From the IMG/VR virus record IMGVR_UViG_3300033388_001337: DNA of 64,000 nt, one strand, 5' to 3'. Positions 44,989 to 51,873 of the stretch are shown here, one piece after another. The position numbers were made by a program, and so were the translations under genes. Source of the stretch: an uncultured virus (IMG/VR IMGVR_UViG_3300033388_001337). Its lineage: Duplodnaviria > Heunggongvirae > Uroviricota > Caudoviricetes > Crassvirales. How positions within the stretch are numbered: the first letter of the stretch is position 1; every line of letters begins with the position of its first letter. The notes under the pieces were generated by a model. The model saw only the letters and a list, made by a program, of their open reading frames with translations, ran no database searches and had not been told where the DNA came from.

Positions 44989-45075
44989 GATTAAGACACA
45001 AGAGTAATAATCTACCAACGTGGTTTGTCATTTGCACCTCTCGTGTTTCGGATATTTAATCCTCATCAGTTAATC
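44989..45075 (-). ncRNA. Hammerhead ribozyme HH-1 (type I)
   Basis: GAUUAA CUGAUGA GGAU-uaaau-AUCC GAAA CACGAGAG-(33 nt)-CUCUUGUG UC^UUAAUC; cut between 44995 and 44994. Confidence 0.93.
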
Positions 45076-45078
45076 TGT

Positions 45079-45315
45079 TTAAAAAATCTCATCAAGATAT
45101 TTATATGACTCAGTTATTTTTTCTAACGCATATATGTATTTAAATATATGGTCACTTTTATTGAGTTCATCTTCATACTCTTGCGAAAACACTTCTTCTT
45201 CGACACTATGTCTTTCATTATAATCAGTGAATTCAGGCTCATAAATGTATTCCAAAACTTTGTTACATAAATGAATCATTTGTTCCTCTTGAAAAGGAGT
45301 CAATTTGTTTTTCAT
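45079..45315 (-). CDS. Hypothetical early protein
   Basis: 78 aa, acidic; stop is 3 nt before HH-1. Confidence 0.7.
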   Translation of the reverse strand: MKNKLTPFQEEQMIHLCNKVLEYIYEPEFTDYNERHSVEEEVFSQEYEDELNKSDHIFKYIYALEKITESYKYLDEIF

Positions 45316-45335
45316 AATTGTTATTTGTTATAGGT

Positions 45336-45385
45336 TTCTACCACCAAAACCCCAACACGTTTTACTGTGTTGAGGTAAGGCAGAA
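45336..45385 (-). ncRNA. Conserved intergenic hairpin motif, copy B
   Basis: UUCUGC-cuu-ACCUCAACAC-aguaaaac-GUGUUGGGGU-uuugg-UGGUAGAA. Confidence 0.55.
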
Positions 45386-45399
45386 TCACACACTACAAA

Positions 45400-45645
45400 T
45401 CAGGATGCGTTCAATGGCGATTCTATATTGTATTCGCCATCCATAATAATCGCATCAATAATCTCTTCTTCATAATTGTACAGGACATCAGTGACATCAT
45501 CTCCATTAAGAATCATTTTGTCTATTGTAATCTCCTCAATGGGTGGGGAATCATAACTTCCTGATTCAACGTAGTATTCGTAATGTACTTCTACTACATT
45601 ATTTTCGGACAGTTCCCAATCGAATTGTAAGTTATAACTTTTCAT
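45400..45645 (-). CDS. Hypothetical early protein
   Basis: 81 aa, very acidic, 'ESGSYDSPP'. Confidence 0.7.
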   Translation of the reverse strand: MKSYNLQFDWELSENNVVEVHYEYYVESGSYDSPPIEEITIDKMILNGDDVTDVLYNYEEEIIDAIIMDGEYNIESPLNAS

Positions 45646-45647
45646 AA

Positions 45648-45902
45648 TTATAATGTTGGTATTGTTCCGTAACCTTTAATTGTAGTGAACAACGCACCAC
45701 CATCATTACCCTCATCATCCATAGATGGATATAGCCAAAATGTCTCTCCGTGTTTGTTTTCCATTAACATACATAAAGGAGATTTGTACCACATCATTTC
45801 ATCTACTTCATCTTCTGACATATATTGTACTTTAACAATCTTACATCCGACAAGATGTTTCTTCGCTAAATCAGTCCAACGTGTTTCTGTGTTTGTTTTC
45901 AT
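45648..45902 (-). CDS. Hypothetical early protein
   Basis: 84 aa; 'LVGCKIVKVQYM...PSMDDEGNDGGALF'. Confidence 0.75.
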   Translation of the reverse strand: MKTNTETRWTDLAKKHLVGCKIVKVQYMSEDEVDEMMWYKSPLCMLMENKHGETFWLYPSMDDEGNDGGALFTTIKGYGTIPTL

Positions 45903-45925
45903 ATTTGATAGTATTTATATGGTTT

Positions 45926-45981
45926 GTAAATGACACCTACATAGGTAGGTGTTTCGGATATTTAATCCTCATCAGATTTAC
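45926..45981 (-). ncRNA. Hammerhead ribozyme HH-2 (type I)
   Basis: GUAAAU CUGAUGA GGAU-uaaau-AUCC GAAA CACCUAC-cuau-GUAGGUG UC^AUUUAC; cut between 45932 and 45931. Confidence 0.95.
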
Positions 45982-46117
45982 TTGCGTACTCCATTGCATT
46001 GCAATATACCCTGTAATAATTAGTACGAACATAGGATATGAAATCAGTGTAAAATTCCTCTTCGGACTCACGTGTATAACCCATATCTTTTTGTTTTATC
46101 AGTGGTTTGTTTTTCAT
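45962..46117 (-). CDS. Small hypothetical protein (51 aa, not in track) ending inside HH-2
   Basis: MKNKPLIKQKDMGYTRESEEEFYTDFISYVRTNYYRVYCNAMEYASKSDED; ATGA-coupled to the upstream gene. Confidence 0.65.
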   Translation of the reverse strand: MKNKPLIKQKDMGYTRESEEEFYTDFISYVRTNYYRVYCNAMEYASKSDED

Positions 46118-46518
46118 TTCTTAAAGGTTTTAATAAATTCATCTACTGTATCATCAAATTTAATTTGATAATCGTAATCTCGCATTTGAATACGAATTTT
46201 GTTATCACTATTTACATAGACAAAATATGTATATTCTTCCCAAACATCTTTACAGTTTGGTGTATGAACATAAATATTACCACGTGGATTCTGTTGTTTG
46301 AACTCGCATAAAGCTAAAGCTGTCAATTCTTCGATTCCGTTTGCGTATTGTGATTCAGTATTGTGGCTTACTCCGTTTGTCAACGTGTATTGTTGCAGAA
46401 TCTCTGCAAGTTCTACTCCGTGTGATTCAGGATAGCCATCATACTGTCTATACATAGTTAATAATGTAGCAGAACCTCTGCCACCATTTTCGAAATGTGT
46501 TAAACTTCTTGTTCCCAT
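46114..46518 (-). CDS. Hypothetical early protein
   Basis: 134 aa; 'MGTRSLT...YRQYDGYPESHG...WEEYTY'. Confidence 0.8.
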   Translation of the reverse strand: MGTRSLTHFENGGRGSATLLTMYRQYDGYPESHGVELAEILQQYTLTNGVSHNTESQYANGIEELTALALCEFKQQNPRGNIYVHTPNCKDVWEEYTYFVYVNSDNKIRIQMRDYDYQIKFDDTVDEFIKTFKK

Positions 46519-46534
46519 ATTTGATAGTTTTTAT

Positions 46535-46592
46535 GATTAGGACACCACTTCATGAAGTGGTGTTTCGGATACTGAATCCTCATCAGCTAATC
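46535..46592 (-). ncRNA. Hammerhead ribozyme HH-3 (type I)
   Basis: GAUUAG CUGAUGA GGAU-ucagu-AUCC GAAA CACCACUU-caug-AAGUGGUG UC^CUAAUC; cut between 46541 and 46540. Confidence 0.95.
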
Positions 46593-46708
46593 TCAACATA
46601 GAATATCCACATCCCCACATAAAATATGAAGAATAAGAATAATAAAAACACTACGTTAATTATATATTCTACAGGATTTTCTTTGATGTCTTTTAATAGT
46701 TGTTTCAT
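46583..46708 (-). CDS. Small membrane protein (41 aa, not in track) whose UGA stop is in the HH-3 core
   Basis: MKQLLKDIKENPVEYIINVVFLLFLFFIFYVGMWIFYVEIS; single transmembrane segment. Confidence 0.6.
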   Translation of the reverse strand: MKQLLKDIKENPVEYIINVVFLLFLFFIFYVGMWIFYVEIS

Positions 46709-46723
46709 AATGTGATTTTTAAA

Positions 46724-47077
46724 TTAATACCTCTTCCTAATAGTTTCTCTTTGGTCTTCAGTCAATACATTGTTCCAAACATACCCATAAGTTTTATCTA
46801 ACTTTTGGTATTTTGATGCGTGTATGTCTAAATCTTTTTCCAATGTTTTTACCCTTTGTTCTAACTCTTCTTTGTCAAAAATGATATTAGCAATATACTC
46901 ATCATTTTCAGCTAATTTTCTGTTTAGATTTTCAGTCAGAGCAGTCCATTGTAAGATTCCAAAAAGCATTTCTATTTTGGAAGTTTTAAGTGCCTCATTT
47001 ACCTCCTCTTCATTATGTTGAGGAAAATGTTTTAATAAGAGGCCTCTGTCGATTTTGCAACTAGTTTTGATTTTCAT
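46724..47077 (-). CDS. Hypothetical coiled-coil early protein
   Basis: 117 aa. Confidence 0.7.
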   Translation of the reverse strand: MKIKTSCKIDRGLLLKHFPQHNEEEVNEALKTSKIEMLFGILQWTALTENLNRKLAENDEYIANIIFDKEELEQRVKTLEKDLDIHASKYQKLDKTYGYVWNNVLTEDQRETIRKRY

Positions 47078-47081
47078 AATA

Positions 47082-47375
47082 TTAAATTTTATTAATTAAG
47101 TTAAGTGCTTTTTTAATTGTCTTTACAGTAAATTTTGCATTCTGGAAGTGAAAGTAATCCTCGCCAATATTAGCAAGAAACTCTAGATTCCATTTAACAA
47201 CCTCTAAAGCATTTTTTGAATCTGTTCTAGTGTAACCCTTACTGCATTTAGGAACAGCCATATCTTTCATTGTGTTATGCATATTCTCTAAAATAGCAGA
47301 TGGTTTTGCAGTGTGTCCGATTGTATTCTTTGATACTAAATCTTGACACATCTTAAAATACTCATTGTAATTCAT
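47082..47375 (-). CDS. Hypothetical early protein
   Basis: 97 aa; preceded by HH-4 and the AACUAUCAAA leader. Confidence 0.7.
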   Translation of the reverse strand: MNYNEYFKMCQDLVSKNTIGHTAKPSAILENMHNTMKDMAVPKCSKGYTRTDSKNALEVVKWNLEFLANIGEDYFHFQNAKFTVKTIKKALNLINKI

Positions 47376-47390
47376 AATTTTGATAGTTTT

Positions 47391-47451
47391 GATTAAGACA
47401 CCTCTAGATCATTTTGAGGTGTTTCGAATATTAAATTCTCATCAGTTAATC
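47391..47451 (-). ncRNA. Hammerhead ribozyme HH-4 (type I)
   Basis: GAUUAA CUGAUGA GAAU-uuaau-AUUC GAAA CACCUC-aaaaugaucua-GAGGUG UC^UUAAUC; cut between 47397 and 47396. Confidence 0.95.
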
Positions 47452-47835
47452 TTCATATTCTATGTTCCACGTATCGCATAAATCTCTTTTAAGATATTCA
47501 TCATCATCCCATCTGTCTGAAATCATTTCTAAAATGTCTTCATCAATGTAGATGCGATTATCTTCTTCAAAGTTATATGCGTAACTGTTTTGCATAAAAG
47601 CATCAATGACAGCTTCAACTAAATTGTCATCATAGTAATACACATCATCAAGTATATTGATTTGTCCTCCTCTTACATTGTCTGTAAAAACAAAGACATC
47701 ATAAGAGTCAGCAGTTTCCTGTGAGTGAATCATATAATCTAGCCCACTGAAATCATCTGTAGTAATTTCTAATGGAAGATACTCATCAACAAATTGTTTG
47801 AATGAGGTGTACTCTGATAAATTTAACTTTTTCAT
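47446..47835 (-). CDS. Hypothetical acidic early protein
   Basis: 129 aa, very Asp/Glu/Tyr-rich; last codon and stop (GAU UAA) form HH-4 stem I. Confidence 0.75.
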   Translation of the reverse strand: MKKLNLSEYTSFKQFVDEYLPLEITTDDFSGLDYMIHSQETADSYDVFVFTDNVRGGQINILDDVYYYDDNLVEAVIDAFMQNSYAYNFEEDNRIYIDEDILEMISDRWDDDEYLKRDLCDTWNIEYED

Positions 47836-47857
47836 AATTTGATAGTTTATTGTGATT

Positions 47858-47914
47858 ATTATAAGACACCTAACTAGTAGGTGTTTCGGATTTTAAATCC
47901 TCATCAGTTATAAT
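47858..47914 (-). ncRNA. Hammerhead ribozyme HH-5 (type I)
   Basis: AUUAUAA CUGAUGA GGAU-uuaaa-AUCC GAAA CACCUA-cuagu-UAGGUG UC^UUAUAAU; cut between 47865 and 47864. Confidence 0.95.
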
Positions 47915-47916
47915 GG

Positions 47917-48117
47917 TTAAGCATTGTTAATCGTACCCTCATAAGAGGTTAGATTATTAGATTCCATCTCTAGTATTGTTAGCTTTGCAACCCTGATACA
48001 CATTGAATATTCTGCTGGAGATATTGCTGTGTTATTGTCAAACATTTTATTAGCTACATTCATAGCTATTTTCATATCGTTTTCAGGCTCAATACTAATA
48101 GTTTTTACTGTACTCAT
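47917..48117 (-). CDS. Hypothetical early protein
   Basis: 66 aa, flanked by HH-6 and HH-5. Confidence 0.7.
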   Translation of the reverse strand: MSTVKTISIEPENDMKIAMNVANKMFDNNTAISPAEYSMCIRVAKLTILEMESNNLTSYEGTINNA

Positions 48118-48136: not shown

Positions 48137-48243
48137 GATTAATGACTATCACTTCTCGCACACATCCACCACTCTTTCAGGTGTTCGCAACGTATTTCGT
48201 GATAGTTTCGTAGGTGTTTAAACCTTTACTCATCAGATTAATC
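48137..48243 (-). ncRNA. Hammerhead ribozyme HH-6 (type I, extended stem II and large loop III)
   Basis: GAUUAAU CUGAUGA GUA-aa-GGU-uuaaac-ACC-UAC GAAA CUAUCAC-(46 nt)-GUGAUAG UC^AUUAAUC; cut between 48144 and 48143. Confidence 0.9.
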
Positions 48244-48311
48244 TTGATTAGATGAACACAACCTCGAACTCATTCGAGATGTCTTCAAGAGCAATTTCAT
48301 AGCTTTCCATA

Positions 48312-48762: not shown

Positions 48763-48770
48763 CAAATATA
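48763..48770 (-). promoter_or_regulatory. Leftward early promoter, -7 element TATATTTG
   Basis: TAnnTTTG on the - strand upstream of the ribozyme-punctuated operon. Confidence 0.65.
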
Positions 48771-49667: not shown

Positions 49668-51278
49668 ATGCAAACAGACTCGGGATACATTCCTAAAAAC
49701 CTAGACTTCGGTCAAGACGGTAGACAAAAACTTATAAACGGAATCACTGCAATCTCTAAAGCAGTTAAGAGTACACTAGGCCCACGAGGCAGAACAGTAC
49801 TAATAGAATCACCACAACATACTAACGGAATAACGGTAACTAAAGACGGGGTTACAGTCGCAAGGTCAGTTGCTTTACTTGATCCAGTTGAAAACTTAGC
49901 AATACAAATGATGCAGGAAGCTGCGAGTCGTACTGCTACTTCGGCTGGTGATGGTACAACTACCGCTATTGTTTTAACTGAAGCTTTAGTAAAAGCTGGT
50001 CAAGAACACATAACACCTGAAAATAATATAACTGAAGTTTTAAAACATATTAATAGAATATGTAACGAAACTATTCTTAAGTTGAAAATGAAAACCAAGA
50101 AAGTAACTAAATCTAAATTAGATGCAGTTGCTTCAATCTCTGCAAACAATGATAAAGAGTTAGGAAAGATTATAGCTGATGCATATAAGAAAGTAGGTGC
50201 AGACGGAATAGTAACTGTAGAAAAATCTATGACAGCCGAAACATATGCTGAGGTTACTAACGGTATTAAAGTAGATAGAGGTTATACTTCACCACTCTTT
50301 ATTAATAATCAAAAGAAAGATGAGTGTATATTAGAAGGAGTTAGGATTTTAGTTTGTGATCAGGAGATTACTAATGTATTGCAAATCGAGAATATATTAA
50401 AACCAATAATTAATAAAGGCGATAAACTTTTAATTATAGCTGAGTGTAATTCAAATGTTGTAAACACACTTGCTGCCAATGTAGTTCGTAATGGTTTAAA
50501 GTTCTGTAATATCATGCCTCCATCATTTGGATATAAAACCCACGAGCTGATGCAGGATATTGCTTTATCAGTTGGTGCAAAATACTTTTCTGAAAAGACA
50601 GGTGATGATTTATCACTGATGCAGTTTTCAGATTTAGGTTATGCAGATAAAATTATTGTAGGAAAAGAAAGTACTGTCTTAATTAAAAACCAAGATATGA
50701 CTGAAGAGATTAAAGAAAGAATCAGTCAACTTAAAGTACAACAAGAAAACACTACACATTTAGGAGATAGAAAGTTTATCAATGAACGTATTGCTAGTTT
50801 AGCAGGTTCTATTGGTTGTATTTATGTAGGAGGTAACAGTGATGTAGAGCAAAAAGAAAAATTTGACCGAGTCGATGACTCGGTGTGCGCTGTGCGCAGT
50901 GCCTTACAAGAAGGCATATTACCAGGCGGAGGAATAGCTTTACGTAAATTAACTCCCCTTGTATATGCAACAGGAGATAAAGATAAGGCTACAGCTGAAC
51001 TTATAATGGCTACAGCTCTTAGCGCACCATTTAATCATATACTTACTAATGCAGGAATCAATATAGAATCTATAGCTGATAAACTTGTAAGCTCAGACTT
51101 TGCTTTTGGTTATGATGTAAAGAATGAAAAGTTTGGTGATATGTTCCAGTTAGGAGTTATTGATCCATTAAAGGTTACTAAGAATGCTTTGATTAATGCA
51201 GTATCTGTAGCAACAACTATATTAAGTACTAACGCTATTATTACACATAAAAGATTAAATGAAGAAAAGGAAGCTTAA
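49668..51278 (+). CDS. groEL: Chaperonin GroEL (phage-encoded)
   Basis: 'AVKSTLGPRGR', 'VTKDGVTVA', 'AGDGTTTA', 'GILPGGG', 'GVIDPLKVTKNAL'. Confidence 0.97.
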   Translation: MQTDSGYIPKNLDFGQDGRQKLINGITAISKAVKSTLGPRGRTVLIESPQHTNGITVTKDGVTVARSVALLDPVENLAIQMMQEAASRTATSAGDGTTTAIVLTEALVKAGQEHITPENNITEVLKHINRICNETILKLKMKTKKVTKSKLDAVASISANNDKELGKIIADAYKKVGADGIVTVEKSMTAETYAEVTNGIKVDRGYTSPLFINNQKKDECILEGVRILVCDQEITNVLQIENILKPIINKGDKLLIIAECNSNVVNTLAANVVRNGLKFCNIMPPSFGYKTHELMQDIALSVGAKYFSEKTGDDLSLMQFSDLGYADKIIVGKESTVLIKNQDMTEEIKERISQLKVQQENTTHLGDRKFINERIASLAGSIGCIYVGGNSDVEQKEKFDRVDDSVCAVRSALQEGILPGGGIALRKLTPLVYATGDKDKATAELIMATALSAPFNHILTNAGINIESIADKLVSSDFAFGYDVKNEKFGDMFQLGVIDPLKVTKNALINAVSVATTILSTNAIITHKRLNEEKEA

Positions 51279-51412: not shown

Positions 51413-51616
51413 ATGCACCCAATTAACAATCAAATCTTCGATTCATATAGATTAGAAGTAAAAAAAATTCATGACGCTATTCGTTTATTAGCAACACAAG
51501 GATATACTGTGATAGACTTAGAAGGTCAAGTTATTACAAAATGGAATATTGGAAAAGACAATTACCCTAATATAACTTACAACAGAACCCCAAAACAATT
51601 AGAATATAACGACTAA
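51413..51616 (+). CDS. Hypothetical protein
   Basis: 67 aa, coupled to groES. Confidence 0.6.
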   Translation: MHPINNQIFDSYRLEVKKIHDAIRLLATQGYTVIDLEGQVITKWNIGKDNYPNITYNRTPKQLEYND

Positions 51617-51873
51617 TGCAACCAATAGGAAAATATATAGCAGTAAAACCTATAGAAGAAGAAATAAAAACTGATTCAGGATTATTGTTATCTTCAAAAG
51701 AAGCGCAAGACTTTAGATATAAAAAGGGATCAGTAATAAAACCTGGCAGTGATGTGACGGTTATAAAAGCTGATGATGTTATATACTACGACAAAAATGC
51801 TGGACACTCTATGCTTTTAGATAATGAGTCGATGACTATTATTCAAGAGAGAGATGTGGTTGTAGTCTTATAA
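51616..51873 (+). CDS. groES: Co-chaperonin GroES
   Basis: 'MQPIGKYIAVKP', mobile loop 'KTDSGLLL', 'IIQERDVV'. Confidence 0.9.
   Translation: MQPIGKYIAVKPIEEEIKTDSGLLLSSKEAQDFRYKKGSVIKPGSDVTVIKADDVIYYDKNAGHSMLLDNESMTIIQERDVVVVL

What the first reader, a model, noticed from the sequence alone, without database searches (positions are those of the whole stretch)
45075..47919. Stop codons are built into the ribozymes, suggesting coupling of translation termination and cleavage
Seen: five of the six ribozymes overlap or abut the end of the upstream gene. In HH-2, a 51-aa ORF reads through stem I and the core (AGU AAA UCU GAU GAG GAU UAA) and stops in loop II. In HH-3, the stop codon of a 41-aa ORF is the UGA of CUGAUGA. 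In HH-4, the last codon plus stop (GAU UAA) is the 5' strand of stem I. HH-1 and HH-5 begin 3 and 2 nt after a stop. Inference: a terminating ribosome would cover the enzyme strand, so cleavage could depend on whether the upstream gene is being translated. The alternative is simple genome compaction.
Basis: partly seen in the sequence, partly recalled or inferred. Interest (0 to 1): 0.7.

Follow-up and report, generated by a model that had tools for sequence, protein, structure and literature searches.

The report
Phage hammerheads doubling as gene ends
Six hammerhead RNA motifs, predicted to cut themselves, start at or across the stop codons of small phage genes; this likely reflects a compact layout in which the ribozyme body serves as the protected tail of each cut message, not a switch run by ribosomes.

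Summary
Observation confirmed and extended: six type I hammerheads lie on the minus strand of a Flavobacteriaceae-type phage's early region. All five stop positions are as stated, and the sixth ribozyme follows an unnoticed conserved 20-aa gene by 4 nt. The pattern is general: 226 of 269 independent phage type I hammerheads overlap or lie within 12 nt of a stop.

Coupling as the purpose is not supported. Type III hammerheads from the same kind of array are that close in only 8 of 65; 31 of the 40 with a nearby gene carry a separate strong hairpin a median 7 nt after the stop. Type II motifs put stem III a median 8 nt after it. Stop positions fit shared letters plus exponential spacer decay better than a ribosome-footprint step. 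The stop triplets are also present where unused, the register drifts in relatives, and the small ORFs are conserved proteins.

Best reading: constitutive cutting into gene-sized messages, each with a short hairpin-ended tail. Ribosome slowing of type I/II cleavage is not excluded; no RNA data. Such arrays are known (Perreault 2011), and this scan has noted stop-sharing hammerheads on other DNA.

The parts
48137..48243 (-). HH-6, type I hammerhead with atypical 20-nt stem/loop II and a long loop III insertion; predicted cut after 48144, 26 nt before the next AUG
48248..48310 (-). 20-aa ORF ending 4 nt before HH-6; starts 1 nt after the stop of the 98-aa gene
   Evidence: 2 and 4 synonymous, 0 non-synonymous codon differences against two relatives
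47917..48117 (-). 66-aa gene; stop at -12 of HH-5; gene plus HH-5 absent as a block in relative G002
47858..47914 (-). HH-5; cut after 47865, leader 29 nt; carries the A-U form of the loop II / cut+7 pair
47446..47835 (-). 129-aa gene; last codon plus stop form the 5' strand of stem I of HH-4
47391..47452 (-). HH-4 including the conserved A at -7; cut after 47397, leader 21 nt
46583..46708 (-). 41-aa hydrophobic protein gene; stop is the first UGA of the HH-3 core
46535..46593 (-). HH-3; cut after 46541, leader 22 nt
46114..46518 (-). 134-aa gene whose stop overlaps the start of the 51-aa gene (AUGA)
45962..46117 (-). 51-aa gene reading through stem I and the core of HH-2, stop in loop II; 36 and 56 aa in relatives, same frame and same end
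45926..45982 (-). HH-2; cut after 45932, leader 29 nt
45323..45400 (-). Long imperfect hairpin, not a hammerhead, starting on the last base of the upstream stop; a second copy at 43670-43605
   Evidence: z -3.8 and -6.4
45079..45315 (-). 78-aa gene; stop at -12 of HH-1, but at -3 in relative G001
44989..45076 (-). HH-1 with a loop III insertion; cut after 44995, 19 nt before a DNA methyltransferase gene
48763..48770 (-). Candidate Bacteroidota -7 promoter element (TAnnTTTG) upstream of the array; another at 48952-48945. Consensus match only
   Evidence: 11 matches against 5 expected in the locus; consensus from PMC6847099

Best explanation
Six type I hammerhead motifs sit between small early genes and are predicted to cut one long phage transcript into units of one to three genes; their overlap with stop codons likely arises because the ribozyme body itself serves as the short, hairpin-ended tail of the upstream message, so no spacer is kept. 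Steps. (1) Shown: full core, three stems, GUC site, and a loop II to cut+7 covariation that suggests a tertiary contact. (2) Inferred: fast, largely constitutive cleavage soon after transcription. (3) Follows from type I topology: the upstream piece keeps its stop, the opened stem I strand, the core and hairpins II and III, and ends in a cyclic phosphate; the downstream gene gets a 5'-OH end and a 19-29 nt A-rich leader. (4) Inferred: spacer loss pulls the stop into the motif until it shares conserved letters (U+AG at -8, UA+A at -9) or is caught by the motif's own UAA or UGA (-3, +1, +11). Stops stay short of stem III and the cut. (5) Inferred: terminating ribosomes briefly melt stem I, a side effect that delays an irreversible cut without gating it.
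For: Topology control. Within 12 nt of a stop or overlapping it: type I 226 of 269, type II 55 of 77 (4 of 81 inside long ORFs set aside), type III 8 of 65. Among motifs with a gene end within 70 nt: 226 of 239 against 8 of 40, Fisher p=3e-24. Type III leaves no hairpin on the upstream piece, and 31 of those 40 have an added hairpin of -6 kcal/mol or stronger (35% of shuffles), touching the ribozyme in 22 of 31 and starting 3-14 nt after the stop in 28 of 31, median 7. Type II: stop to stem III median 8 nt, n=64. Type I: stop to first intact hairpin 3-14 nt in 169 of 210, median 12. For stops at -8 to -35 among 240 motifs, shared letters times exponential decay gives log-likelihood -247.1; step models at gaps of 3, 6, 9, 12 and 15 nt give -250.9, -257.2, -268.9, -272.8 and -284.5. 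Unused stop triplets: UAA at -3 in 83 of 201, a stop at +11 in 103 of 221, UGA at +1 in 207 of 207; A-7 in 77 of 78 where it is non-coding. At the HH-1 site the stop is -12 in three genomes and -3 in G001, where the -12 codon reads AAA. A non-hammerhead hairpin in the window also starts at the stop. Tandem phage hammerheads cut polycistronic RNA in vitro and in E. coli (PMC3088659).
Against: Type I junctions are tighter than ordinary ones: 226 of 269 within 12 nt, against 541 of 996 plain stop-to-AUG gaps of 15 nt or less, although plain gaps may hide promoters or missed small genes. Loop III tolerates insertions of 30-45 nt in this phage, so compaction is not uniform. The 3-nt step model is only 3.8 log units worse than the decay model. 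The 5-nt lower limit for type II is partly forced by my search pattern. Type I/II and type III could have different jobs. Stem III is not clearly stronger where the stop lies in loop II (-10.1 against -9.4 kcal/mol, p=0.08). Protection by the hairpins and ends is inferred, and no cleavage or RNA-end data exist for this phage.
Confidence: 0.66

Rival explanations
1. Negative coupling: ribosomes terminating on the enzyme strand hold the ribozyme open, so the message stays uncut while the upstream gene is heavily translated or ribosomes stall at the stop, and is cut when translation falls.
For: 6 of 6 stops here and 226 of 269 type I stops lie within reach; type II also abuts with an essential strand (55 of 77). 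The small ORF before HH-2 keeps its AUGA start and its +11 end through in-frame length changes (36, 51, 56 aa). In a toy model with assumed rates, the share of time folded falls to 0.05-0.18 if refolding is slow (0.05/s) and ribosomes arrive at 0.2-0.5/s.
Against: Type III motifs in similar arrays are out of reach in 32 of 40, and 13 of 65 share a locus with type I motifs. No plateau over the footprint width. The register varies over three frames and drifts between relatives. The small ORFs conserve protein sequence. With refolding of 0.5-5/s the toy model gives 0.25-0.97 folded, a delay of at most four-fold of an irreversible cut (rates assumed, not measured).
Confidence: 0.14
2. [quoted passage not shown]
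For: Precedent: translation of the upstream exon rescues folding of the T4 td intron, and in-frame stops at introns are read the same way (PMC3017892; PMC3984707). Naked HH-3 and HH-4 with their last codons fold into non-hammerhead structures; the native flank costs 4.9 and 4.2 kcal/mol for HH-3 and HH-5.
Against: Across 236 motifs native 30-nt flanks are no worse than shuffled ones: mean rank 0.471, p=0.16; worst of 12 in 14 cases against about 20 expected; overlap class 0.488. A 6-bp AU-rich stem I should release unaided (general knowledge).
Confidence: 0.12
3. The motifs matter mainly as DNA repeats that let gene cassettes be gained, lost and swapped by recombination; cleavage is weak or incidental and the overlap is a scar of trimming.
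For: Gene-plus-ribozyme blocks are absent in G002 and extra in G001, and one loop III insertion appears at different sites in different relatives. An orphan half-site precedes the first gene. An exonuclease VIII-like gene lies downstream.
Against: All six cores are intact, and stem I differs between copies with pairing kept. Stem columns and an unselected loop II to cut+7 pair covary across 240 motifs (U-A 199, A-U 18). Cuts sit 19-29 nt before an AUG. Recombination explains the shuffling, not the RNA-level conservation.
Confidence: 0.08

Closest known systems
Clustered hammerheads flanking single genes or short gene blocks in phages and prophages (Perreault et al. 2011, PMC3088659; passages, section 6 and a supplement text search seen)
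   Same: Several hammerheads between small variable genes, proposed to process long phage transcripts into operon- or gene-length mRNAs; tested arrays cleave in vitro and in E. coli.
   Different: [quoted passage not shown] The relation to stops and the type I/II/III contrast are not described there, and this subfamily falls below all Rfam gathering scores.
RAGATH-1 hammerhead (Rfam RF03152)
   Same: Type I topology, same core and GUC site; best Rfam match.
   Different: 25.8 and 25.1 bits against a gathering score of 56.3; the model has a 5' hairpin and a very short stem II, whereas these have a 4-bp stem II with a U-N-A-N-U loop.
T4 td group I intron and other bacterial group I introns with an in-frame stop (reviews PMC3017892 and PMC3984707, passages seen)
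   Same: A phage ribozyme next to a stop whose folding depends on translation of the upstream sequence.
   Different: Splicing, not cleavage; there translation helps folding. No population-level sign of a folding trap here.
[quoted passage not shown]
   Same: An intergenic type I hammerhead filling a short UTR and cutting just before a start codon.
   Different: Eukaryotic RNA viruses, cap-independent initiation, no clear tertiary contact; that study set DNA phage hits aside.
RNase III processing sites of the T7 early region (recalled) and RiboJ-type insulators (one passage in PMC12857756)
   Same: Works like them: cuts an early polycistron or standardises the 5' leader of the next gene.
   Different: T7 sites need a host enzyme; RiboJ is synthetic. 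Likeness of function only.

Membership tests
Hammerhead ribozyme, type I | Conserved core CUGANGA, GAAA and NUH cleavage triplet | tested here: met
   All six: CUGAUGA, GAAA, GUC
Hammerhead ribozyme, type I | Three helices, stems II and III closed, stem I open | tested here: met
   Stem I 6-7 bp, stem II 4-5 bp (3 bp plus a bulged extension in HH-6), stem III 7-9 bp; pairing kept where copies differ
Hammerhead ribozyme, type I | Tertiary contact between stems I and II | tested here: inconclusive
   Last base of loop II covaries with cut+7 in 240 motifs (U-A 199, A-U 18, G-A 16); HH-5 has the A-U form; HH-6 does not fit. Geometry not determined
Hammerhead ribozyme, type I | Self-cleavage giving 2',3'-cyclic phosphate and 5'-OH ends | not testable with these tools
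   No RNA holder listed
Rfam hammerhead families including RAGATH-1 (RF03152) | Score at or above the gathering threshold | tested here: not met
   0 matches in the window; best 25.8 of 56.3 bits
Clustered phage hammerheads (Perreault 2011) | Several hammerheads flanking single genes or short blocks in a phage genome | tested here: met
   Six within 3.3 kb; terminase, portal and GroEL genes; nearest cultured terminases in Flavobacterium and Cellulophaga phages
Translation-controlled RNA switch (leader-peptide or td-intron type) | Fixed stop register or a sequence-free short ORF that delivers ribosomes | tested here: not met
   Registers -14, -12, -3, +1, +11 and -12 here; drift in G001; conserved peptide motifs; upstream ORFs median 87 aa
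Translation-controlled RNA switch (leader-peptide or td-intron type) | Built-in alternative fold resolved by the ribosome | tested here: inconclusive
   No excess over shuffles in 236 motifs; individual misfolds predicted for HH-3, HH-4 and HH-5
Translation-controlled RNA switch (leader-peptide or td-intron type) | Activity changes with upstream translation | not testable with these tools
   Needs a cleavage assay

The most novel reading that the evidence does not exclude
Type I and type II phage hammerheads are translation-gated nucleases: the stop codon is placed on the catalytic strand so that ribosome traffic or stalling at the stop sets when each junction of the early transcript is cut, while type III motifs, insulated by their own hairpin, cut constitutively. 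Phages would then choose a hammerhead topology to choose between regulated and unregulated mRNA processing.
Probability: 0.14. Interest if true: 0.7.

Novelty: new member of a known kind. Interest (0 to 1): 0.33.

Why it matters
The role of bacterial and phage hammerheads is called an open question in two reviews (PMC6765202; PMC6155905). The comparison here gives a testable design rule across the three topologies: the upstream message ends in a stop, a few unpaired bases and a hairpin, and the hairpin is added separately only when the ribozyme does not leave one behind. That points to cutting into separately stabilised gene units as the function. The six natural registers, from 4 nt outside to 11 nt inside the core, form a ready series for measuring how a terminating ribosome affects ribozyme folding. 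A cultured relative, Flavobacterium phage elemoA_13-1A, carries one type III and one weaker type I motif and could serve for end mapping.

Tried and rejected
Rfam: no gathering hit; weak matches only. No RNA holder listed for the region; one RNA run gave 0 contigs on it, and three other runs only confirmed the G002-type variant. Neither says anything on expression.

One search seemed to show native flanks folding better than shuffled ones (p=1e-6), but it compared one value with a mean of skewed values; the rank test removed the effect.

The pair count on a four-copy alignment is uninformative: the alignment put the 3' strand of stem III out of register and my structure string did not fit it. 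One search held a mistyped one-base row and was not used.

The idea that one core cuts two sites: the orphan half-site before the first gene has a counterpart upstream in only 1 of 269 motifs, so I treat it as a relic. An integron attC reading was considered and dropped on recalled consensus; no integrase appeared among the 26 proteins scanned.

The scan for the second hairpin element gave mostly chance hits: 34 of 103 distinct matches folded at -9 kcal/mol or better, and by eye one outside this phage (L709) had the same shape. Homologue searches for the small ORFs returned only the protein itself (51 aa) or two near-identical proteins (41 aa); the evidence comes from relatives' loci instead. 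Sigma-70 promoter and terminator scans were at chance. A blastn search of HH-2 against cultured phages found no match. Splitting type I motifs by a Shine-Dalgarno-like leader changed little: 110 of 121 against 91 of 116 within 12 nt.
Full report
Setting. The window is nearly all of a 64,173-base virus record with direct terminal repeats. It encodes terminase, portal, GroEL, a primase-like protein, helicase, exonucleases and a DNA methyltransferase. The nearest cultured terminases are from Flavobacterium (45%) and Cellulophaga phages. The six leaders after the ribozymes have A at -3 and no Shine-Dalgarno motif, as described for Flavobacterium (PMC6847099, passages). A Flavobacteriaceae host is therefore likely. 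The small minus-strand genes at 44-48.7 kb are read as early genes from their position and size (inference); 11 of the 12 genes from 48608 to 44304 that I scanned have no convincing family.

The ribozymes. Six motifs with CUGAUGA, GAAA and GUC form type I hammerheads; predicted cuts lie 26, 29, 21, 22, 29 and 19 nt before the next AUG. My descriptor finds 6 on the minus strand, 0 on plus and 0 in 60 resampled windows. Stem I differs between copies with pairing kept. In 240 related motifs the last base of loop II covaries with the base 7 nt after the cut, a pair that my search did not select. None reaches an Rfam gathering score.

The observation. All five stated positions are right. HH-6 also follows a 20-aa ORF by 4 nt, and that ORF shows only synonymous changes in two relatives. 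The 41-aa ORF has 3 synonymous and 0 other codon changes in G002 and keeps its hydrophobic stretch in G001. The 51-aa ORF starts in an AUGA overlap and is 36 or 56 aa in relatives, with a shared motif and the same end in loop II. Both look like real proteins.

Close relatives. The -3, +1 and +11 registers are inherited at their sites. At HH-1 the stop is at -12 in the window, G002 and G003, despite a 21-nt deletion at the gene end in the latter two, but at -3 in G001, where the -12 codon reads AAA and the frame runs on to the ribozyme's own UAA. G001 has an extra gene with its own ribozyme (stop at -3) and one more hammerhead after the methyltransferase gene, whose stop is at +1; G002 lacks the 66-aa gene with HH-5. 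Adjacency is kept, register is not.

Wider sample. Six pattern scans of IMG/VR gave 301 distinct type I and 89 type III motifs with at least 450 nt upstream, merged by shared upstream DNA into 269 and 65; a seventh scan gave 81 type II. Genes were called by my own script (AUG start, 45 aa or more), which misses genes such as the window's 41-aa one and so inflates the 'far' classes. Type I: 179 overlap, 30 at 0-3 nt, 17 at 4-12, 11 at 13-60, 24 at 61-450, 8 with none. Type III: 5 overlap (probably miscalled ORFs or another family, since they run past the cut), 0 at 0-3, 3 at 4-12, 32 at 13-60, 10 farther, 15 with none. Type II, 77 not inside long ORFs: 15 overlap, 28 at 0-3, 12 at 4-12, 8 at 13-60, 11 farther, 3 with none.

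What separates the topologies. After cutting, type I leaves stems II and III on the upstream RNA, type II leaves stem III, and type III leaves nothing. Of 40 type III motifs with a gene end within 70 nt, 31 have a strong extra hairpin set against the ribozyme, a median 7 nt after the stop. Type II stem III starts a median 8 nt after the stop; for type I the first intact hairpin is a median 12 nt away. One rule covers all three: stop, a few unpaired bases, hairpin. In type I the stem I strand and core fill that spacer. Type III is also more often at the head of an array: no gene end within 70 nt in 25 of 65 against 30 of 269, and 5'-most in 10 of 13 mixed loci. A different long hairpin in this window also begins at the stop, twice.

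Why the stops are built in. Among 240 motifs with the common stem II, stops peak at -9 (28), -8 (31), -3 (39), +1 (33) and +11 (19). The -8 and -9 peaks use the conserved A and G at the motif's edge, and a model of free letters times exponential decay (about 6 nt scale) fits offsets -8 to -35 better than any footprint step tried. The triplets at -3, +1 and +11 are common in motifs that do not use them, and two or three frames are closed before the cut in 235 of 240. The deepest stop used is at +15, short of stem III. In the earlier set of 264, 4 ORFs of 60 aa or more ran past a cut.

Against this reading. Type I junctions are tighter than plain ones, loop III insertions persist, and the geometry does put the ribosome on the enzyme strand. 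A toy calculation with assumed rates gives anything from no effect to a twenty-fold slowing, the latter only if refolding is slow. Translation is known to help a phage group I intron fold (reviews), but native flanks show no excess of folding traps here. No RNA data were available.

What is known. Perreault 2011 describes clustered phage hammerheads and proposes processing of polycistronic RNA. Three searches for a link to stop codons or mRNA processing in phages returned only two unrelated reviews or nothing; 'stop codon' is absent from Perreault's text and searchable supplements and from the Weinberg review. Subscription papers, figures and alignment images were not searched. Earlier notes of this scan report stop-sharing type I hammerheads and hairpins before type III motifs in other phages; I read those after forming my view, and they are unchecked notes.

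Verdict. A real, clean example of a known arrangement. The overlap is general and best explained as a minimal, self-protecting gene tail (0.66); negative coupling 0.14, positive coupling 0.12, recombination repeats 0.08. New member of a known kind, interest 0.33.

Noticed in passing
window 45400-45323 and 43670-43605, minus strand: Two related long imperfect hairpins fill 84- and 92-nt gaps, starting at the stop; z -3.8 and -6.4; kept in relatives; no Rfam match. They may be RNase III-type sites (recalled likeness). One similar element at L709.
   Followed up: partly
window 48640-48625, minus strand: Orphan substrate half of a hammerhead before the first gene, complementary to the HH-6 enzyme strand over 7 + 7 bp and kept in G001 and G002. 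It could be a cassette relic or a long-range second cut site; only 1 of 269 motifs has one upstream.
   Followed up: partly
window about 48750-48635, minus strand: Long bulged hairpin in the leader of the first early gene, predicted in all three relatives.
   Followed up: no
240 type I motifs in loci L007-L659: A subfamily with 6-bp stem I, A at -7 (237 of 240), loop II U-N-A-N-U and a covarying loop II / cut+7 pair; below all Rfam thresholds and a candidate for a new model.
   Followed up: partly
type III loci such as L065, L530, L560, L580: A GC-rich hairpin abuts the 5' edge of type III hammerheads in 31 of 40 cases with a nearby gene.
   Followed up: yes
L656:2505-2600 (G001), minus strand: An extra hammerhead with a branched stem III and a UUA site after the methyltransferase gene, whose stop is the core UGA; absent in the window.
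   Followed up: partly
L651 (HH-2 site) and L658 (HH-5 site): Nearly the same loop III insertion occurs at different ribozymes in different relatives, suggesting exchange between copies.
   Followed up: no
L917 and L918 (MT497065.1, 16723-16747 and 18494-18518): Cultured Flavobacterium phage elemoA_13-1A has a type III hammerhead at the head of its small-gene array and a weaker type I motif 76 nt after a stop; 4 other related records have none.
   Followed up: partly
L297:2500 and L325:2500: Type III-like hammerheads with a long stem I insertion overlapped by 440-464 aa ORFs that end past the predicted cut; a different setting.
   Followed up: no
window 49668-51278, plus strand: Phage-encoded GroEL chaperonin, with an 85-aa ORF at 51616-51873 that I did not scan.
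   Followed up: no
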